Shown piece by piece: positions 26,735 through 43,715 of a stretch of 64,000 bases of DNA. How positions within the stretch are numbered: the stretch's first letter is position 1; every line of letters begins with the position of its first letter. Source of the DNA: Candidatus Omnitrophota bacterium (lineage in GTDB: Bacteria > Omnitrophota > Gorgyraeia > Gygaellales > Profunditerraquicolaceae). Location: positions 6,558-70,557 of the forward strand of contig JBAZEH010000003.1 in NCBI GenBank assembly GCA_041653955.1, read 5' to 3'. The position numbers and the translations under genes are program-made. The notes under the pieces are model-generated. The model saw nothing but the letters and a program-made list of their open reading frames with translations. It searched no databases and was not told the DNA's origin.

Positions 26735-29700
26735 ATGCCTCATTCTGATTTTGTCCACCTTCACCTGCATACACAGTATAGCCTTCTTGACGGTGCCTGC
26801 CGTATACCCCAACTATTAGAGCGCGCGAAACAATATAAGATGGATTCCCTTGCCATTACAGACCATGGCAGTATGTTCGGGGCCATGGATTTTTATATGG
26901 AGGCCCGCAAGGCGGGGATAAAGCCGATCATAGGATGCGAGGTTTATATCGCTCCCGCCAGCCGCCTGGATAAATCATGCGGAAGCATTGAGGAGGCTGC
27001 ATACCACCTGATACTCCTGGCGCGCGATGAAACCGGATATCAGAACCTTATAAAACTTGTTTCTATAGGGTACCTTGAGGGATTTTATTACCGGCCGCGC
27101 ATAGATAAAGAGGTGCTTTCTCAATACCAGAAGGGGCTCATAGCTATGACCGCCTGCCTTAAGGGGGAGGTGCCCTCGCTTTTACAGCAGAAGCGTTTTA
27201 ACGACGCGCTGAAGGCTGCCGATGACTATCTGAATATCGTGGGTAAAGATAATTTTTACCTGGAGGTCCAGGGAAACAGTATACCTGAACAAAAGATAGT
27301 CAATGAAGGCTTGATAAAGATATCCAAAGAACTGAATATACCCCTTGTCGCTACCAACGACGTGCATTATCTCTCCAAAGAGGACGCAGTAAGCCATGAA
27401 GTCCTCCTTTGCATCCAGACCCAGAGCACGATGAATGACCCCAACAGGATGCGTTTTCAGACTAACGAGTTCTATTTTAACTCTCCCGAAGAGATGAAGG
27501 AACTTTTCAGGGATATCCCCGGGGCCGTTACCAATACCCTTGAGATTGCCGGGCGCTGTAACCTTGAGCTGGATTTTTCCAAAGTGCACCTGCCCCGCTA
27601 TGACCCGCCTGTCGGCAAGACCAAGGAGGAGTATTTAAGGGAACTGAGTGAAATAGGGTTGAAAGAGAAATTTCCCGGAGCAGGAGCGGATATAAGGGAG
27701 CGCCTGGAGCATGAAATAGGGCTTATCAAGGACAGGGGGTTTATAAGTTACTTCCTTATCGTATGGGATTTTATCCATTATGCCAAAAAGAATAATATTC
27801 CCGTCGGGCCGGGGCGCGGTTCGGCCGCGGGGAGCCTGGTGAGCTATTTATTGGGGATAACAGATATCAATCCCCTTAAATACGGCCTCCTATTTGAGCG
27901 CTTCCTTAATCCCGAAAGGCAGGGGCTGCCGGATATAGATATTGATTTCTGCTACGAAAGAAGGAATGAGGTCATTGATTATGTGACCGCCAAATACGGC
28001 AAGGGGAATGTCGCCCAGATCATCACTTTCGGGACGATGCAGGCGCGCGCGGTAGTAAGGGATGTGGGCAGGGTTATGGGCCTGGCTTATGCCGAGGTAG
28101 ACCGGATCGCGAAGATGATACCGCCGGACCCCGGGATGAGCCTTAAGGACGCGCTGGAAAGCGAGGGTGAACTTAAGAATCTTTATAAGAGCGATCCCCA
28201 GATAACCAAGCTTATTAACGTCGCCCTATCGCTTGAAGGGCTTAACCGCCACGCTTCTACCCATGCAGCCGGTGTCGTTATCGCCGATAAGCCCCTGGAT
28301 AATTATATGCCTTTATTTGAGACCCAGGACGGCCAGATAACTACAGGCTATAGTATGAGCGTCCTTGAGAAGATAGGCCTGTTAAAAGTTGATTTCCTGG
28401 GGTTACGCACATTGACGGTGATTGATGAGACAAGGAAGATAATAGAAAAGACCAGGGGCCTTAAACTGGATATAGAGAATCTCTCCTTGGATGAGCCCAA
28501 TACATATAAACTTCTCGGTTCCGGGCAGACTGTCGGGGTATTCCAGGTAGAGAGTTCAGGGATGCGCGACCTTTTGAAAAAACTCCAGCCCGACCACTTT
28601 GAAGACCTGATAGCGCTCCTGGCTTTATACCGCCCGGGCCCTATCGGCTCGGGGATGCTTGATGATTTTATGCAGCGCAGGCATGGCCGGGTCCCGATAA
28701 AATACCATCATCCTAAACAGGAAAGGATCCTTAAAGAGACTTACGGGATCATTGTTTATCAGGAACAGATCATGCAGATCGTAGCCGAGCTGGCTGGTTT
28801 TAGCCTTGCCCAGGCGGACCTCCTGCGGCGCGCCATAGCAAAAAAGATACCCGAGGTCATGGAGCAGCAGAGGAAGAATTTTATCCTCGGATGCATCAAG
28901 AACCATATCAGTGAATCGGTAGCAAACCGCATATTTGACCTGATTGAATATTTTGCGGGTTACGGTTTTAATAAATGTGTCGTGGGTTCTACCGAGATTA
29001 TAGACGGCGATACCGGAAAGGTTATATCTGTCAGAGAATTGTTTGAGAGGAAAGGCGTTATAAATTCCACCTTAAGCTGCGACGATAACCTCAAGATCAC
29101 AAAGAAGAAGATAAAAGACGTGGTTAATAACGGCGTCAAGCCTGTTTATAAACTAAAGACGGCTTTAGGCAGGGAGATCACAGCTACTTCGAACCACCCG
29201 TTTTTTACTATAAGCGGATGGAAGAACCTGGGGGACCTGCGTATCGGAGAGAGGATCGGTTTGGCGAGAAGCTTACCTTGCGGGACATCTACCGTAGCGC
29301 CATATAAATTAATTGCTTTAGCGGGTATACTTTCCGAAGGCAATACTTGTCATCCGAGCGGGGCATACTATTATAATAACGACCGGATACAGGTAGATGA
29401 TTTTGTAAACAGCTTAAAGGGGTTTGAGAATACGGTTGCGCGTGTAAAGAAGCGCAGAGGCCGTTTTGAGGTGTATGCCGGCACAGGCAAAGATACAAGA
29501 TTTTTAAAAGGAGGGGCTCCCTGGAATAAAGGTTTTAACAAGGAAGACTATGGTGCCGCAGTGAAGTTAATAACCGGCAGAAAATGCGGGTTAAGGCTGT
29601 GGATAGAAGAGTTAGGCCTTGATTACAAGAAAGCGACGGAAAAATTCATTCCTCAAGAGATCATTTCTCTGGATAAGGAACAATTGTCTTTATTCGTGGG

Positions 29701-31540
29701 CAGGCTCTGGTCCGGGGACGGTTTTTTGTTCACTAAAAACAACACGATTCCATTTTACGCTACCTCATCGCATAAATTATGCCGGCAACTCCAGGATATC
29801 CTGCTTAAACTGGGCATTGCCAGCCGCCTGGTAAAGAAAGAATTCAATTATGAACATAAGAACACTAAAGATACCAGGGTCGGCTACGCGCTTTATCTAT
29901 ATGGCTACGAAAGCATCGTTAAATTCATCACTCATGTTAGCTGCCACATAATCGGAAGGGCAGTCCAGCTGGAACAGCTGCGTAATTATTACAGGCAGGT
30001 GCCGCCTAATTTAGAAAGCAAGGATACTTTACCGGTATCAATAAAAGAAATAGTCAGGGAAGAAAAGGAAAAACTGGGGTTGACTTGGGAGGAAATAGAA
30101 AATAGGGCCGGAGTTTGCATGAAGGAATTTTATGGTGGAATAAAACCGCATAAAAAGGGCTTTAGACGCAGCACAATAATGCGGCTGGCCCGTTTCTTCG
30201 AGTCCGAAAAGTTATTAAGGTACGTTAACGCGCAGGTCGTATGGGACAGTGTAATATCCGTAGAATATATGGGCAGGGAGGAAACCTATGACCTGGAAAT
30301 AGAAGATACGCATAATTTTATCGCTAACGGCATAATAGTCCACAATTCACATTCAGCCGCATACGCGATGATCTCTTACCGCACTGCGTATCTTAAGGCG
30401 AATTATCCGGTTGAATTCATGTGCGCCCTGCTTACTTCGGAAAGGGATAATACCGATAAGATAGTGGAGTATGTCAATGAATCCGGCCGCATGGGGATAA
30501 AGGTCCTGCCTCCGGATATCAACGAGAGCGATTCGTTATTTAAGGTTATTGATAATAATACTATACGTTTTGGGCTTTTGGCGGTGAAGAATGTGGGGGG
30601 CGGAGCGGCGGAATCCATAGTTAATGCCAGGGGTGAGGGCCCCTTTGTTTCACTTGAGGACCTTTGCCGGCGCATTGATTCGCGGTTAGCCAACCGCAAG
30701 GTCCTGGAGAGCCTGATCAAATGCGGCGCCCTGGATACTTTTGGCTTGCCCAGAGCGCAGATGTTCGTTTCGCTTGCCACAATAATGGAGATATCTTCAA
30801 GGGCCCAGAAAGAGAAGGCAAAAGGGCAGATATCCTTCTTTGATGCCGGGTTTTCGGATAACTCCTTTAAGGAGACGGCGAATAATATGCCGTCCATAAA
30901 GGAGTGGCCTGAACCGCAGCTTTTGGCTTTTGAGAAAGATATGCTGGGGTTTTATGTCACCGGGCACCCGTTGGCGCGTTATGCCCATGAGCTTAAGCGT
31001 TTTACTTCTTCCTCAACCTCTAACTTGCACCAATACGATGACGGCAGGGAGATAAAGATAGTAGGTTTGATCGCTAAAATAAAACAGACTGTTACGCGCG
31101 CCAAGCAGGAGAAGATGGCTATATTAAAATTAGAGGACCTTGAAGGGATCGTTGAGGTCCTTGTTTTTCCCGCTACTTTCAAGAGGTCATCCCGGTATAT
31201 ATTGCCCAGCACGGTGGTGATGGTAACAGGGAGGATTGACCTGAAGGAGGATACCCCCAAGATATTAGCCAGCGACATTTTTCCGATGGACGAAGTTTAT
31301 AAACTGATCACCGCCGTCAATATAAACCTTTCGGGGATAAGGGAGAACCTTTTTGAGAGTTTAAAGGAGCTTTTGGCCCGTTATCAGGGAAAGATCCCCG
31401 TGTATATGCACCTGGATACGCCTTCCAAGTCAAGGGTGCATATGGTTGTAGGTGAAGGGCTATATGTTTTGCCTTCCGATGAGCTGATAAAAGAGATAGA
31501 ATCCCTTCTTGGTGAAGACCGCGTCTCTTTGATAATGTAA
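26735..31540 (+). CDS. dnaE: DNA polymerase III alpha subunit (DnaE) precursor containing an intein
   Basis: N-terminal PHP domain HLHLHTQYSLLDG, polymerase core, OB fold; 1601 aa = ~1144 aa DnaE + 457 aa intein. Confidence 0.95.
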   Translation: MPHSDFVHLHLHTQYSLLDGACRIPQLLERAKQYKMDSLAITDHGSMFGAMDFYMEARKAGIKPIIGCEVYIAPASRLDKSCGSIEEAAYHLILLARDETGYQNLIKLVSIGYLEGFYYRPRIDKEVLSQYQKGLIAMTACLKGEVPSLLQQKRFNDALKAADDYLNIVGKDNFYLEVQGNSIPEQKIVNEGLIKISKELNIPLVATNDVHYLSKEDAVSHEVLLCIQTQSTMNDPNRMRFQTNEFYFNSPEEMKELFRDIPGAVTNTLEIAGRCNLELDFSKVHLPRYDPPVGKTKEEYLRELSEIGLKEKFPGAGADIRERLEHEIGLIKDRGFISYFLIVWDFIHYAKKNNIPVGPGRGSAAGSLVSYLLGITDINPLKYGLLFERFLNPERQGLPDIDIDFCYERRNEVIDYVTAKYGKGNVAQIITFGTMQARAVVRDVGRVMGLAYAEVDRIAKMIPPDPGMSLKDALESEGELKNLYKSDPQITKLINVALSLEGLNRHASTHAAGVVIADKPLDNYMPLFETQDGQITTGYSMSVLEKIGLLKVDFLGLRTLTVIDETRKIIEKTRGLKLDIENLSLDEPNTYKLLGSGQTVGVFQVESSGMRDLLKKLQPDHFEDLIALLALYRPGPIGSGMLDDFMQRRHGRVPIKYHHPKQERILKETYGIIVYQEQIMQIVAELAGFSLAQADLLRRAIAKKIPEVMEQQRKNFILGCIKNHISESVANRIFDLIEYFAGYGFNKCVVGSTEIIDGDTGKVISVRELFERKGVINSTLSCDDNLKITKKKIKDVVNNGVKPVYKLKTALGREITATSNHPFFTISGWKNLGDLRIGERIGLARSLPCGTSTVAPYKLIALAGILSEGNTCHPSGAYYYNNDRIQVDDFVNSLKGFENTVARVKKRRGRFEVYAGTGKDTRFLKGGAPWNKGFNKEDYGAAVKLITGRKCGLRLWIEELGLDYKKATEKFIPQEIISLDKEQLSLFVGRLWSGDGFLFTKNNTIPFYATSSHKLCRQLQDILLKLGIASRLVKKEFNYEHKNTKDTRVGYALYLYGYESIVKFITHVSCHIIGRAVQLEQLRNYYRQVPPNLESKDTLPVSIKEIVREEKEKLGLTWEEIENRAGVCMKEFYGGIKPHKKGFRRSTIMRLARFFESEKLLRYVNAQVVWDSVISVEYMGREETYDLEIEDTHNFIANGIIVHNSHSAAYAMISYRTAYLKANYPVEFMCALLTSERDNTDKIVEYVNESGRMGIKVLPPDINESDSLFKVIDNNTIRFGLLAVKNVGGGAAESIVNARGEGPFVSLEDLCRRIDSRLANRKVLESLIKCGALDTFGLPRAQMFVSLATIMEISSRAQKEKAKGQISFFDAGFSDNSFKETANNMPSIKEWPEPQLLAFEKDMLGFYVTGHPLARYAHELKRFTSSSTSNLHQYDDGREIKIVGLIAKIKQTVTRAKQEKMAILKLEDLEGIVEVLVFPATFKRSSRYILPSTVVMVTGRIDLKEDTPKILASDIFPMDEVYKLITAVNINLSGIRENLFESLKELLARYQGKIPVYMHLDTPSKSRVHMVVGEGLYVLPSDELIKEIESLLGEDRVSLIM
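28976..30346 (+). mobile_element. intein with LAGLIDADG homing endonuclease domain, inserted in DnaE between GYGFNK and SHSAAYA
   Basis: Begins CVVGSTEI (Cys1), block B TATSNHPFFT, two LAGLIDADG-like motifs (LIALAGILSEGNT, LFVGRLWSGDGFL), ends IIVHN followed by Ser +1. Flanking exteins reconstitute the conserved GYGFNKSHSAAYA polymerase motif. Confidence 0.85.
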
Positions 31541-31616: not shown

Positions 31617-32054
31617 ATGGCCGGGAAAACCAGTCATTCTCGTATTCGCGCTTTCACTCTTCTGGAATTGATAATAGTAATTATTGTCGTGGGAGTATTA
31701 GGTTCTCTCGGTTTTTCCCAGTACAGCAAGTTAATGGAAAGATCCAGATGTGCCGAGGCAAAGGCTATTCTTGGAGCGATAAGGACCGCGCAGACCGCCT
31801 ATAAACTTTCTTACGGCGGGTATGCCGCAAGCCTTGCAGAGATTGGCGTAGAGGCTCCAGCTGTCTGTGAATCTACGCACTATTTTCGTTATTATCTCGG
31901 CGATAGCAATAATAGCGCGTTTGCGGCCCGCTGCGGTAGCGGAGGGAAGTATCCTGATTATCCTTCATGCCCGTATCATTGCCGCACTGAGTGGTATTAT
32001 GGCAATGTATTCTGCGGCGTTTATCAGGATGGTGTCTGGGTACAAAGATGGTAG
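31617..32054 (+). CDS. prepilin-type N-terminal cleavage/methylation domain protein (type IV pilin / pseudopilin-like)
   Basis: MAGKTSHSRIRAFTLLELIIVIIVVGVLG: class III signal with (A)FTLLE motif and hydrophobic helix; Cys-rich C-terminal region. Confidence 0.7.
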   Translation: MAGKTSHSRIRAFTLLELIIVIIVVGVLGSLGFSQYSKLMERSRCAEAKAILGAIRTAQTAYKLSYGGYAASLAEIGVEAPAVCESTHYFRYYLGDSNNSAFAARCGSGGKYPDYPSCPYHCRTEWYYGNVFCGVYQDGVWVQRW

Positions 32055-41187: not shown

Positions 41188-42009
41188 ATGAAGAAGTACG
41201 TTTTAGTATTATTTATAGTGGCCGCGGTATCGCTCTTGTTTCTGTTTTTCCGAGGCATAACCTGTCCGTTGAGCAGGCCCGCGGTACAGGCGCCCCGTGG
41301 CATGGATATCAAGGCATCAGAGTCCGAGATGCTGCGGTATCTCAAGGAGAGAAATGACCTGCTTGCCGCGCAGAAGGCCGAAGTGGTGTTATCCGTACAG
41401 CCCGGTAATATTTGTGCTTTGTGGGCAAAGGCGGAGATATACAGGCGCGCGTATGACTTTAATGAATCCAAAAAGATATTGAACCGCATCCTGGCGGCCT
41501 CTCCGGGATATCCGCCTGCCCTGATCACCCTGGCTTATATTGATTACCATGATAACAGGTTCCGCGAAGCGTTATCTTTATTGAAACAGGCGTTGAACTC
41601 TGCGCAGCTTGGCAGGGAAGATAAGGCGATCGCCTATATGCTGATAGGCAGCGTCAACGCGAAAAGGGCAAAACAGGGAGGGTTGTTTAACAAGATTGCT
41701 TACGGCACCAGGATACTGGGGTATTTTGAAAAAGCGAGGGCTTTCGCGCCCGGACTTGCTGAAGTGCGTTTAGGGTTAGGCTCATTTTATCTTTTGGCCC
41801 CGCGTATAGCGGGCGGGAATATTGACCTGGCCATCGAAGAGTTGAAACGCGCGGTTGATCTGGCCCCTGATTTTGCGACGGCTAACGCGAGGCTCGCGCA
41901 GGCATACAGGGAAAAAGGGGATATGGATAAATATAACTTCTATATCTCCAGGGCAAAAAAACTGGACCCTGCCAATGAAGTAGTAGTGGAACTTGAGGGC
42001 AGGATATGA
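41188..42009 (+). CDS. secreted/anchored TPR-repeat protein
   Basis: N-terminal signal/anchor, tandem TPR-like helices. Confidence 0.6.
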   Translation: MKKYVLVLFIVAAVSLLFLFFRGITCPLSRPAVQAPRGMDIKASESEMLRYLKERNDLLAAQKAEVVLSVQPGNICALWAKAEIYRRAYDFNESKKILNRILAASPGYPPALITLAYIDYHDNRFREALSLLKQALNSAQLGREDKAIAYMLIGSVNAKRAKQGGLFNKIAYGTRILGYFEKARAFAPGLAEVRLGLGSFYLLAPRIAGGNIDLAIEELKRAVDLAPDFATANARLAQAYREKGDMDKYNFYISRAKKLDPANEVVVELEGRI

Positions 42010-43715
42010 AGAATTCAGAGATCAGCGCGATATTCCGCGAGATCGTCAGGATACTGGAGATAAAGGGGGCTAATCTGTTCAGGATACGCGCGTATGAAAG
42101 GGCGGCGCAGAATATAGAGGGGTTGACAGTAGATATAGAAGAGATTATCAGGAGGGGGGAGCTTGACGATATACCGGGTATAGGCAATGACCTGTCCGCG
42201 AAGATAAAAGAATTTGTGAAGACCGGCAGGATAAAAATGCATGAACGCCTGAAAAAAAGTATCCCCAAAGGCCTCCTGGATATATTGAATATACCTTCAG
42301 TAGGCCCTAAGACGGTGAAATTATTATATGAAGAGCTGAAGATAAAGGGGATCCCGGATTTAGAGCGTGCCATAAAAAAGAATAAACTTACGGGGATACC
42401 CGGGATAAAAGAAAAGACCGTCGAGAATATTGAAAAGGGGATAGCGCTGTTAAAGAGGGGCAGGGAACGGATGACCCTTGCGCAGGCTATTAGCGTAGCG
42501 GATGAGTTCGCGGGTGCCTTAAAAAAACTGCCGGAAGTAAAGAAGATCGCTGTTGCCGGGAGCCTGCGGCGCCGCAAAGAGACAGTGCGCGATATAGATT
42601 TGCTTATGATCTCAAATAAGCCCAAAAGGGTGATGGGTTATTTCACTGGCCTGCCTGCCGTGGTTTCTGTGCTGGCGAAGGGGCAGACTAAATCTTCCGT
42701 GCGAACAAAGGATGATGTGCAGGTTGATTGCCGCGTTGAAAGCGAAAAGTCTTTTGGGGCCGCGCTGCTCTATTTCACCGGTTCCAGGGATTTCAACATA
42801 AAACTCAGGCGGATGGCTGCAAGCAGGGGGCTAAAGATAAATGAATATGGAGTATTCAGGAAAAATAAGTTTATATGCGGCAGGAGCGAAGATGAGATAT
42901 TCAAGGCCCTTGGGCTTTCTTATATTGAGCCGGAATTAAGGGAGGACACCGGAGAGATAGAGCTGGCAATGAGCTCCGGACTGCCGCGTCTTATAGAAGC
43001 CGCGGATATAAAAGGGGACCTCCATGTCCATTCAGACTATTCCGACGGTATCAATACAATAGAAGAGATGGCTGAAGCGGCAAAGAAAAGAGGTTACTCC
43101 TATATAGCTATCACCGACCATTCCCAGAGCCTTAAGGTGGCAGGGGGTTTGGATACTGCCGGATTAAAGAAGAAAAGGCGCCAAATAGATAAAGTGAACG
43201 GCAGGCTAAAGGGTATCAGGGTCCTTTATGGGACCGAAGTGGATATAGATTCCGAAGGCCGCCTGGATTATAAAGATGGCACGCTCAAGGAGTTTGACCT
43301 GGTAGTAGCCGCGGTCCATACCGGCTTTAAACAATCCAGGGCGCAGCTCACCCGCAGGCTGGTAAAGGCGTGCCGCAGTAAATACGCGCATATTATCGCG
43401 CATCCGACCGGAAGGCTTTGGGGGGTGCGGGACCCATATGAATTGGATATGGATGAAGTTTTAAGGGCAGCCAGAGATACCAATACGCGCCTTGAAATAA
43501 ATTCCTTCCCTAACCGTCTTGACCTGAATGACCTTAACTGCCGCCGCGCAAAGGAGTCAGGCGTAGGCGTGGCAATAAACACCGACTCACACGCGTGTGA
43601 ACAATTGGATTTTATCGGGTTAGGGGTATCGGTAGCCAGGCGCGGGTGGCTTACCCGCGAGAATGTGATAAATACCTTACCGCTGGAAGAGCTTTTAAAA
43701 GCGATAAAAAAATAA
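42006..43715 (+). CDS. polX: DNA polymerase X family protein with C-terminal PHP phosphoesterase domain
   Basis: N-terminal Pol beta-like HhH and nucleotidyltransferase (GSLRRRKETVRDIDLL), C-terminal PHP (HVHSDYSDG). Confidence 0.85.
   Translation: MKNSEISAIFREIVRILEIKGANLFRIRAYERAAQNIEGLTVDIEEIIRRGELDDIPGIGNDLSAKIKEFVKTGRIKMHERLKKSIPKGLLDILNIPSVGPKTVKLLYEELKIKGIPDLERAIKKNKLTGIPGIKEKTVENIEKGIALLKRGRERMTLAQAISVADEFAGALKKLPEVKKIAVAGSLRRRKETVRDIDLLMISNKPKRVMGYFTGLPAVVSVLAKGQTKSSVRTKDDVQVDCRVESEKSFGAALLYFTGSRDFNIKLRRMAASRGLKINEYGVFRKNKFICGRSEDEIFKALGLSYIEPELREDTGEIELAMSSGLPRLIEAADIKGDLHVHSDYSDGINTIEEMAEAAKKRGYSYIAITDHSQSLKVAGGLDTAGLKKKRRQIDKVNGRLKGIRVLYGTEVDIDSEGRLDYKDGTLKEFDLVVAAVHTGFKQSRAQLTRRLVKACRSKYAHIIAHPTGRLWGVRDPYELDMDEVLRAARDTNTRLEINSFPNRLDLNDLNCRRAKESGVGVAINTDSHACEQLDFIGLGVSVARRGWLTRENVINTLPLEELLKAIKK

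What the first reader, a model, noticed from the sequence alone, without database searches (positions are those of the whole stretch)
28976..30346. DnaE intein with LAGLIDADG homing endonuclease at the GYGFNK/SHS site
DnaE is 1601 aa because a ~457-aa in-frame insertion splits the universally conserved GYGFNKSHSAAYA motif. The insertion carries canonical intein features: Cys1, block B TxxH, two LAGLIDADG motifs, C-terminal HN, and Ser at +1. The classic cyanobacterial DnaE (split) intein sits three residues upstream, before CFNK, so this may be a distinct insertion site in the polymerase active-site region.
Basis: partly seen in the sequence, partly recalled or inferred. Interest (0 to 1): 0.6.

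Follow-up and report, generated by a model that had tools for sequence, protein, structure and literature searches.

The report
Known-site LAGLIDADG intein in DnaE
The replicative DNA polymerase gene here carries a standard self-splicing, self-homing protein insert (an intein with a LAGLIDADG endonuclease) at a polymerase active-site position that intein catalogues already list for Thermus and Gemmata, so it is real but ordinary.

Summary
dnaE (26735-31540, +) encodes 1601 aa. Codons 748-1204 (nt 28976-30346) are an in-frame 457-aa insertion between GYGFNK and SHSAAYA. It is a canonical class-1 intein: Cys1, block B T71-x-x-H74, His456-Asn457, Ser+1. It has a nested LAGLIDADG endonuclease with both catalytic acidic residues (E121, D248). 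Pfam and NCBIfam models match it. The AlphaFold model resembles full-length endonuclease-bearing inteins (TliVMA, PI-PfuI, PI-SceI).

The site is distinct from the cyanobacterial split-intein site (AEY|CFNK): it lies four residues downstream, not three. It is not new. A published table of catalogued inteins lists Tth-HB27 and Tth-HB8 DnaE-2 (FNK|SHAA) and Gob DnaE (FNK|SHTA) at exactly this junction.

Of the 80 best genome loci, 68 carry a homologous intein at this junction in DnaE or DnaE2. They come from at least 15 phyla. The nearest are Omnitrophota MAGs (64-66% identity).

The 40 closest syntenic metagenomic relatives have an empty site. Inteins are often far more similar between phyla than their host genes. 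Both facts fit homing and horizontal spread.

Verdict: a new Omnitrophota member of a known intein allele; low interest.

The parts
26735..31540 (+). dnaE precursor ORF (DNA polymerase III alpha subunit, 1601 aa including the intein)
   Evidence: ORF list. Pfam domains PHP, DNA_pol3_alpha, DNA_pol3_finger, HHH_6, OB and C-terminal domain. NCBIfam DnaE equivalogs NF005298 and NF004226, each matched in two stretches that flank the insert.
26735..28975 (+). N-extein (aa 1-747), ending ...EYFAGYGFNK. The last residue corresponds to E. coli K758.
   Evidence: alignment to E. coli Pol III alpha 2hnh; numbering derived from that alignment.
28976..30346 (+). Intein, 457 aa (precursor aa 748-1204)
28976..29290 (+). 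N-terminal splicing (Hint) subdomain, intein aa 1-105. Block A has Cys1 (28976-28978). Block B is GREITATSNHPFFT with T71 and H74 (29168-29209).
   Evidence: TIGR01445 covers aa 1-78. Identity to the Ssp and Npu DnaB mini-inteins is 35-37%. C1, T71 and H74 are invariant in 67 allelic inteins.
29291..29941 (+). LAGLIDADG homing-endonuclease core, intein aa 106-322. Motif 1 is LIALAGILSEGN (29309-29344, catalytic E121). Motif 2 is LSLFVGRLWSGDG (29684-29722, catalytic D248). A variable low-confidence loop lies at about aa 176-200.
   Evidence: Pfam LAGLIDADG_3. E121 is kept in 66/67, D248 in 67/67 and K223 in 66/67 allelic inteins. The model shows alpha-beta-beta repeats, and Foldseek hits PI-PfuI, PI-SceI and I-DmoI.
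29942..30229 (+). Helical accessory domain between the endonuclease core and the C-terminal splicing strands (intein aa 323-418). It contains the conserved LGLTWEEIE..GV..KEF and K-G-F-R-R-S-T-I motifs. It is probably a helix-turn-helix-like DNA-recognition module (inferred).
   Evidence: Six helices are predicted with pLDDT mostly 78-95. K393, G395 and R398 are invariant in alignment A2. There is no Pfam match. The function is inferred only.
30230..30346 (+). C-terminal splicing subdomain, intein aa 419-457. Block F is ETYDLEIEDTHNFIANG (30281-30331). Block G is IIVHN (30332-30346), ending in His456-Asn457.
   Evidence: TIGR01443. D439, H446, N447, H456 and N457 are invariant in 67 inteins.
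30347..31540 (+). C-extein (397 aa plus stop), beginning SHSAAYA. The +1 Ser codon is 30347-30349, equivalent to E. coli S759. His at +2 is equivalent to H760, the proposed steric-gate residue.
   Evidence: PMC8485763 for the roles of S759 and H760.

Best explanation
This is a canonical class-1, bifunctional (splicing plus homing) intein in the dnaE gene of an Omnitrophota-like bacterium. It sits at the already catalogued FNK|SH insertion site of DNA polymerase III alpha. The proposed mechanism is inferred from conserved residues and from established intein chemistry. The 1601-aa precursor is translated with the finger-domain helix that carries the steric gate interrupted, so it should be inactive as a polymerase. 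Cys1 undergoes an N-S acyl shift, assisted by block B T71/H74. Ser+1, the active-site serine equivalent to E. coli S759, attacks the thioester to form a branched ester. Asn457 cyclises with help from His456 and releases the intein. An O-N shift then restores the native GYGFNK-SHSAAYA peptide bond. The released intein is a single-chain LAGLIDADG endonuclease with catalytic residues E121 and D248 and an extra helical DNA-binding-like domain. It recognises the uninterrupted GGxTAYGGxTTYAAYAAR|TCxCAYTCx sequence of intein-less dnaE alleles and cuts it. Repair from the intein-containing copy then copies the element in (homing). The element persists because its target encodes residues the polymerase cannot change, and because imprecise loss would kill an essential gene.
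For: The anatomy and coordinates are exact. Intein and LAGLIDADG profiles pass their curated cut-offs. All splicing residues are invariant, and the endonuclease catalytic residues (E121 66/67, D248 67/67) and K223 (66/67) are conserved across 67 allelic inteins, which implies purifying selection on both activities. The AlphaFold2 model has pLDDT 80.9 and pTM 0.83. Its best structural matches are full-length endonuclease-bearing inteins: TliVMA 7qss (E 7e-21, TM 0.74), PI-PfuI, PI-TkoII and PI-SceI. The same junction is occupied by homologous inteins in 68 of the 80 best genome loci. Table S1 of PMC3359363 lists Tth DnaE-2 and Gob DnaE at FNK|SH. Empty-site orthologues exist: the 40 closest metagenomic relatives (68-84% identity across the junction) all read GYGFN[KR]SHS and share the guaA-dnaE-hisS synteny. 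Intein-bearing Omnitrophota alleles (65-80% over the same 272 aa) are interleaved with them in similarity. Horizontal spread is indicated: intein identity exceeds that of the adjacent C-extein in 78% of 2080 pairs, by up to 28 points between phyla, for example a gammaproteobacterium against Gemmataceae at 63% versus 35%. Intein GC is 43.9% against 48.7% for the extein. The site maps to K758|S759 next to the proposed steric gate H760.
Against: Neither splicing nor endonuclease activity was or can be tested here; both are inferred from conserved residues. Within the nearest Omnitrophota group, intein divergence (64-66% identity) roughly tracks extein divergence (70-80%). That fits vertical inheritance there, so this particular copy need not have homed recently. 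The metagenome ranking may favour uninterrupted (intein-less) alignments, so how common empty sites are is not measured. Direct sequence comparison with Tth DnaE-2 and Gob DnaE was not possible. Membership of the same allele family rests on the identical junction plus Deinococcota and Gemmataceae homologues.
Confidence: 0.9

Rival explanations
1. The splicing domain works, but the endonuclease is no longer active or no longer has available targets. On this view the element is a vertically inherited, effectively fixed passenger in this lineage rather than an actively homing element.
For: Intein and extein identities co-vary among the nearest Omnitrophota loci. The overall intein-extein identity correlation is 0.66. 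Shorter relatives exist, showing that endonuclease decay occurs in this family: P0023 is a mini-intein that has lost the endonuclease region, and L060 and L065 are 390-393 aa.
Against: This copy keeps both catalytic acidic residues, the conserved Lys223 and the full domain length. These residues are nearly invariant in 67 alleles. Empty sites are present in closely related syntenic genomes, so targets exist. Cross-phylum intein similarity well above host-gene similarity argues for ongoing transfer in the family.
Confidence: 0.25
2. The intein has been co-opted as a conditional, environment-sensing switch. Splicing would be gated by, for example, redox state, metal ions or temperature, so that maturation of the replicase is regulated after translation.
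For: The insert interrupts the helix bearing the proposed steric gate and uses the active-site serine as its nucleophile. The precursor should therefore be inactive, and splicing rate could in principle control replicase supply. Novikova et al. argue that intein clustering in replisome active sites may be functional (PMC4760082).
Against: Nothing in the sequence distinguishes it from ordinary inteins. Close relatives with the same gene order do without it. Active-site location is equally explained by the need of homing endonucleases for invariant target DNA.
Confidence: 0.08
3. It is not an intein: either a lineage-specific DnaE domain or an assembly or frameshift artefact.
For: None found.
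Against: Blocks A, B, F and G are all present with invariant catalytic residues. There are curated-threshold intein profile hits and a Hint plus LAGLIDADG fold. The reading frame is continuous. The same architecture occurs at the same junction in dozens of independent assemblies, including cultured Allochromatium humboldtianum and Deinococcus arenicola.
Confidence: 0.01

Closest known systems
Tth-HB27 / Tth-HB8 DnaE-2 inteins (Thermus thermophilus) and Gob DnaE intein (Gemmata obscuriglobus), as catalogued in InBase-derived Table S1 of PMC3359363
   Same: The host protein and junction are identical: FNK | S-H-(A/T/S), with Ser as the +1 nucleophile. The size class is similar (423 and 446 aa against 457 aa). 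Deinococcota and Gemmataceae genomes in my locus set carry homologues of the window intein at this junction, at 44-47% identity.
   Different: The host phylum differs (Omnitrophota-like). The sequence is only about 44-47% identical to the Deinococcota and Gemmataceae representatives I could read.
Omnitrophota MAG DnaE inteins (L001-L004, L007; e.g. VGKM01000079, JAUYEC010000200, DOMD01000071)
   Same: Same junction, 458 aa against 457 aa, 64-66% identity. The neighbourhood is the same (guaA upstream; hisS and aspS downstream).
   Different: About one third of residues differ. The exact window protein is not on record in the protein collection.
Cyanobacterial split DnaE inteins (Ssp / Npu DnaE; PolIII-alpha site 'a' of Novikova et al.)
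   Same: Same host protein and the same finger-domain hot spot. Both are class-1 Hint domains with Cys1.
   Different: The split inteins sit at AEY|CFNK, four residues upstream, with Cys as +1. They are encoded on two genes and lack an endonuclease (PMC3759424; PMC4760082). Sequence similarity to the window intein is marginal (E 0.006-0.01).
DnaB helicase inteins (Ssp DnaB, Npu DnaB; NCBIfam PRK07773 intein-containing DnaB)
   Same: These are the closest solved and curated relatives by sequence. Identity in the Hint domain is 35-37% (1mi8, 4o1r). The PRK07773 match (E 8e-73) extends across the endonuclease and the C-terminal region. Full-length DnaB inteins in loci L069-L080 are 28-32% identical.
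   Different: The host protein and insertion sites differ (GK|T and ESG|S in DnaB).
Structurally characterised bifunctional inteins PI-PfuI, PI-TkoII, PI-SceI, TliVMA
   Same: Same overall architecture in the predicted model: a Hint domain interrupted by a two-motif LAGLIDADG endonuclease plus an accessory domain.
   Different: Sequence identity is 10-17%. They come from archaeal or yeast hosts and other host proteins.

Membership tests
Class-1 intein (Hint splicing domain) | In-frame insertion that interrupts a conserved host motif, with the host sequence contiguous once it is removed | tested here: met
   GYGFNK|...|SHSAAYA. The spliced product aligns without a gap to E. coli and Taq Pol III alpha.
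Class-1 intein (Hint splicing domain) | Block A nucleophile (Cys/Ser1) and block B TxxH | tested here: met
   Cys1 and T71-S-N-H74 are present and invariant in 67 alleles.
Class-1 intein (Hint splicing domain) | Blocks F and G with terminal His-Asn, and a Cys/Ser/Thr at +1 | tested here: met
   ETYDLEIEDTHNFIANG / IIVHN | S. TIGR01443 scores E 3e-9.
Class-1 intein (Hint splicing domain) | Hint fold | tested here: met
   In the AF2 model, the N- and C-terminal beta regions superpose on the DnaB, RecA and DnaE mini-inteins at rmsd 1.4-3.7 A.
Class-1 intein (Hint splicing domain) | Actual protein splicing | not testable with these tools
   Needs expression of the precursor and detection of the ligated exteins.
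LAGLIDADG homing endonuclease (intein-nested, single-chain) | Two LAGLIDADG motifs, each ending in a catalytic acidic residue | tested here: met
   LIALAGILSEGN (E121) and LSLFVGRLWSGDG (D248). These are conserved in 66/67 and 67/67 alleles. Pfam LAGLIDADG_3 passes its cut-off.
LAGLIDADG homing endonuclease (intein-nested, single-chain) | Pseudo-dimeric alpha-beta-beta-alpha-beta-beta-alpha core fold | tested here: met
   The secondary-structure order in the model fits. Foldseek hits PI-PfuI, PI-SceI, I-DmoI and I-Tsp061I.
LAGLIDADG homing endonuclease (intein-nested, single-chain) | Site-specific cleavage of the intein-less allele, and homing | not testable with these tools
   Only indirect support is available: empty sites in syntenic relatives and cross-phylum discordance between intein and host similarity.
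DnaE FNK|SH insertion-site allele (Tth DnaE-2 / Gob DnaE) | Same host protein and identical insertion junction | tested here: met
   The window cassette is FNK|SHSA. Table S1 of PMC3359363 gives FNKSHAA (Tth DnaE-2) and FNKSHTA (Gob DnaE) with Ser as the insertion-site residue.
DnaE FNK|SH insertion-site allele (Tth DnaE-2 / Gob DnaE) | Sequence homology of the intein itself to the catalogued members | not tested
   The Tth and Gob sequences were not retrievable. Homologues at this junction from Deinococcales, Deinococcus and Gemmataceae are 44-47% identical to the window intein.
Cyanobacterial split DnaE intein | Insertion at AEY|CFNK, and host gene split into two loci | tested here: not met
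   The junction is four residues downstream and the gene is contiguous.

The most novel reading that the evidence does not exclude
The most novel reading not excluded is this. Because the intein breaks the steric-gate helix of the replicase and uses the active-site serine (S759 equivalent) as its splice nucleophile, splicing could be conditional. It could then serve the host as a post-translational gate on replicase maturation, with the conserved but unclassified helical domain (intein aa 323-418) acting as a sensor or DNA-dependent regulator rather than only as a homing-site recognition module.
Probability: 0.07. Interest if true: 0.5.

Novelty: new member of a known kind. Interest (0 to 1): 0.15.

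Why it matters
It matters little beyond annotation. The gene should be annotated as an intein-containing dnaE whose mature product is 1144 aa. The finding adds Omnitrophota to the host range of the FNK|SH DnaE intein allele. The survey made along the way is mildly useful to intein specialists. It shows that this allele is very widespread (more than 555 relatives in species-representative genomes, across at least 15 phyla). It has also entered the DnaE2/ImuC paralogue at the homologous position. It is patchy among close relatives, and between phyla the inteins are more alike than their host genes. This is a textbook case of a homing element exploiting an immutable active-site codon string. Such inteins with Ser at +1 could also be mined as splicing tools.

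Tried and rejected
1. I looked up the exact precursor protein in the assembly index; it is not on record, so the source sample is unknown.

2. I searched phage genomes for a DnaE intein of this allele as a possible vector. Only distant inteins in terminase, helicase and RecA genes turned up (22-26% identity), with none in a phage DnaE.

3. I tried to obtain site letters for PolIII-alpha from Novikova et al. The main text gives sites a-g and a 75-aa finger hot spot but not residue positions, and no supplements are held. Caspi et al. 2003 is not held. Text searches for GFNKSH, YGFNK and FNKSHS in main texts found nothing. The answer came from a supplementary table instead.

4. A Pfam scan of the helical accessory domain alone, at E up to 10, gave no family.

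5. I considered a second intein or other inteins in the window. The extein length is normal, and the ten window ORFs scanned (nine of the largest plus the short pilin-like ORF) are ordinary housekeeping genes or unmatched, with no intein domains.

6. I considered a frameshift or chimera; the continuous frame and the many independent assemblies with the same architecture reject it.

7. The protein database used for one search returned only proteins of 779 aa or less. Full-length intein-containing DnaE proteins therefore could not be retrieved from it, and I used genome loci instead.
Full report
**Observation**

The ORF at 26735..31540 (+) encodes 1601 aa. Translation and motif search place CVVGSTEI...GIIVHN at residues 748-1204. 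That is nt 28976-30346 and 457 aa, exactly as reported. The flanks are ...EYFAGYGFNK and SHSAAYAMISY.... Removing the insert leaves a 1144-aa DnaE of normal length. There is no frameshift or stop.

The extein parts carry the full Pol III alpha domain set: PHP, DNA_pol3_alpha, finger, HhH, OB and the C-terminal domain. NCBIfam DnaE equivalogs match in two stretches that stop at 748-750 and resume after the insert.

**What the insert is**

- Pfam Intein_splicing scores E 7.6e-29, spanning aa 12-457 of the insert. LAGLIDADG_3 scores E 3.8e-9.
- The NCBIfam intein N-terminal (TIGR01445) and C-terminal (TIGR01443) splicing-region models pass their cut-offs. An intein-containing DnaB model matches strongly (E 8e-73).
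- The closest solved sequences are the Ssp and Npu DnaB mini-inteins (E 1.7e-23 and 3.7e-22), which align to both halves of the Hint domain.
- The motif positions are as follows:
  - Cys1.
  - Block B, T71-S-N-H74.
  - LAGLIDADG motif 1, aa 112-123 (E121).
  - LAGLIDADG motif 2, aa 237-249 (D248).
  - Block F, aa 436-452.
  - Block G, IIVHN, followed by Ser+1.
- An AlphaFold2 model built from a 15-sequence alignment has mean pLDDT 80.9 and pTM 0.83.
- Foldseek against the PDB returns full-length endonuclease-bearing inteins first: TliVMA 7qss (E 6.7e-21, TM 0.74 on the target), PI-PfuI, PhoVMA, PI-TkoII and PI-SceI. Mini-inteins and free LAGLIDADG enzymes such as I-DmoI follow.
- Between the endonuclease core and the C-terminal splicing strands lies a confidently predicted six-helix region (intein aa 323-418). 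It has conserved motifs (LGLTW...GV..., K-G-F-R-R-S-T-I) but no Pfam match. I infer a DNA-recognition accessory domain, as in other large inteins. This is not shown.

**Where it sits in the polymerase**

Alignment of the spliced region to E. coli Pol III alpha (2hnh) is gap-free around the site. It puts the junction between K758 and S759. S759 and H760 lie in the finger-domain helix at the active site. H760 is the proposed steric gate against ribonucleotides, and S759 packs against the palm (PMC8485763). The intein therefore uses the active-site serine as its +1 nucleophile, and the unspliced precursor should be inactive (inference).

**Is the site new?**

No. Table S1 of Apgar et al. 2012 (PMC3359363) lists catalogued inteins with their extein and intein ranges, the insertion-site residue and a 7-residue cassette. 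The relevant rows are:

| Intein | Range | Insertion-site residue | Cassette |
|---|---|---|---|
| Tth-HB27 and Tth-HB8 DnaE-2 | 1239-1661 | S1662 | FNKSHAA |
| Gob DnaE | 762-1207 | S1208 | FNKSHTA |

This is the same junction. The other DnaE sites in that table are LRR|SMGK (Tth DnaE-1), LRR|CMGK (Ter DnaE-2) and GVL|CYQE (Ter DnaE-1).

Novikova et al. 2016 describe seven PolIII-alpha insertion points. Five of them (a-d and g) fall within a 75-residue stretch of the fingers, and point a is the split cyanobacterial site (PMC4760082). The split site is AEY|CFNK (PMC3759424), four residues upstream of the present junction.

**Distribution**

- A protein search with the intein returned many DnaE fragments with the identical C-junction HN|SH(S/T/A) and, where present, the N-junction GF(N/P)(K/R/E)|C.
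- A scan of one genome per GTDB species with an intein-only alignment found at least 555 relatives.
- Among the best 80 loci, 68 are DnaE or DnaE2 genes with the intein at exactly this junction. The other 12 are DnaB inteins.
- Hosts include Omnitrophota, Actinomycetota, Bacteroidota, Gammaproteobacteria, Desulfobulbaceae, Myxococcota, Planctomycetota (including Gemmataceae), Deinococcota, Chloroflexota, Acidobacteriota, Gemmatimonadota, Armatimonadota, Eisenbacteria, Methylomirabilota, Dormibacterota and Saccharibacteria.
- Cultured hosts include Allochromatium humboldtianum DSM 21881 and Deinococcus arenicola.
- The nearest relatives are Omnitrophota MAGs, at 64-66% intein identity and 70-80% extein identity. 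They share the guaA-dnaE-...-hisS-aspS gene order. The window is therefore most likely from an Omnitrophota bacterium (inference).

**Evidence on activity and mobility**

- Across 67 allelic inteins, C1, T71, H74, D439, H446, N447, H456 and N457 are invariant.
- The endonuclease residues are nearly so: E121 in 66/67, D248 in 67/67 and K223 in 66/67. Both functions therefore appear to be under purifying selection in the family, and this copy has all of these residues.
- A metagenome scan with the spliced 272-aa junction region returned 80 loci. The 40 closest (68-84% identity) all read GYGFN[KR]SHS without interruption.
- Many of those loci have guaA (84-89% identical) immediately upstream and hisS downstream, so they are orthologous empty sites.
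- Over the same 272 aa, the intein-bearing Omnitrophota alleles are 65-80% identical to the window. Presence and absence are thus interleaved among close relatives.
- Between phyla the intein is often much more similar than the host gene. One example is a gammaproteobacterium against Gemmataceae, at 63% intein identity versus 35% for the first 300 aa of the C-extein.
- In 78% of 2080 pairs the intein is the more similar of the two.
- Intein GC is 43.9% (GC3 49.7%), against 48.7% (57.4%) for the exteins.
- Together these fit the usual cycle of homing, fixation, decay and loss, with horizontal transfer.
- Decay stages are visible in relatives, for example the endonuclease-less mini-intein in P0023.
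- Caveats apply. The C-extein is a relatively fast-evolving part of DnaE. The metagenome ranking may favour contiguous alignments. No biochemical activity has been measured.

**Mechanism (inferred from established class-1 intein chemistry and LAGLIDADG enzymology)**

1. An N-S acyl shift occurs at Cys1.
2. The acyl group is transferred by transesterification to Ser+1.
3. Asn457 cyclises, aided by His456.
4. An O-N shift restores K-S.
5. The free intein cleaves intein-less dnaE at the GYGFNK/SHS coding sequence, and recombinational repair copies it in.

**Context**

The rest of the window is ordinary housekeeping DNA: ValRS, UvrB, GroEL, GuaA, HisS, AspS, a PolX-type polymerase and pyruvate phosphate dikinase. 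No other intein was detected among the ten ORFs scanned (nine of the largest plus the short pilin-like ORF). No phage DnaE carries this intein in the phage collection.

**Verdict**

The finding is real and correctly interpreted as an intein with a LAGLIDADG homing endonuclease. However, it occupies a long-catalogued DnaE insertion site and belongs to a very widespread allele family. It is a new (Omnitrophota) member of a known kind, of low interest.

Noticed in passing
L055, L056, L057, L059, L062, L066, L068 (genome loci); P0009, P0023: The same intein family also sits at the homologous position of the error-prone paralogue DnaE2/ImuC (YGFPE|C...VHN|SHAASFA) in Methylomirabilota, Myxococcota and Gammaproteobacteria. 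P0023 is a mini-intein version that has lost the endonuclease. This suggests a jump between paralogues at the equivalent site.
   Followed up: partly
L048 (ORF 2264 aa), L019 (1892 aa), L032 (1868 aa), L023 (1864 aa), L053 (1840 aa), L042 (1830 aa): Several related dnaE ORFs are 200-650 aa longer than one intein would explain. They probably carry a second or third intein at other DnaE sites, as in Thermus thermophilus. I did not map these.
   Followed up: no
window 29501-29575 (intein aa about 176-200): There is a low-confidence, variable loop inside the first half of the endonuclease (FLKGGAPWNKGFNKEDYG...). It is present in Omnitrophota, Actinomycetota and Planctomycetota alleles and absent in many others. 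It happens to contain the tetrapeptide GFNK, which also ends the N-extein; this is probably chance.
   Followed up: no
window 31617-32054 (+): A 145-aa ORF just downstream of dnaE has a type IV prepilin-like N-terminus (FTLLELIIVIIVVGVL) and a Cys-rich C-terminal part. It has no Pfam match at E <= 1e-5.
   Followed up: partly
window 1-64000: Almost every ORF of 150 aa or more that looks real is on the + strand. Cumulative GC skew rises steadily across 24-35 kb. Both are consistent with a long co-oriented leading-strand stretch.
   Followed up: no
window 42006-43715 (+): A family X DNA polymerase (HHH_8, pol-beta thumb, C-terminal PHP domain) is encoded about 10 kb downstream of dnaE.
   Followed up: no
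L069-L080: DnaB helicase inteins at two different DnaB sites (GK|T... and ESG|S...) are the next closest relatives of this DnaE intein family, at 28-32% identity. This indicates shared ancestry of inteins across replisome genes.
   Followed up: partly
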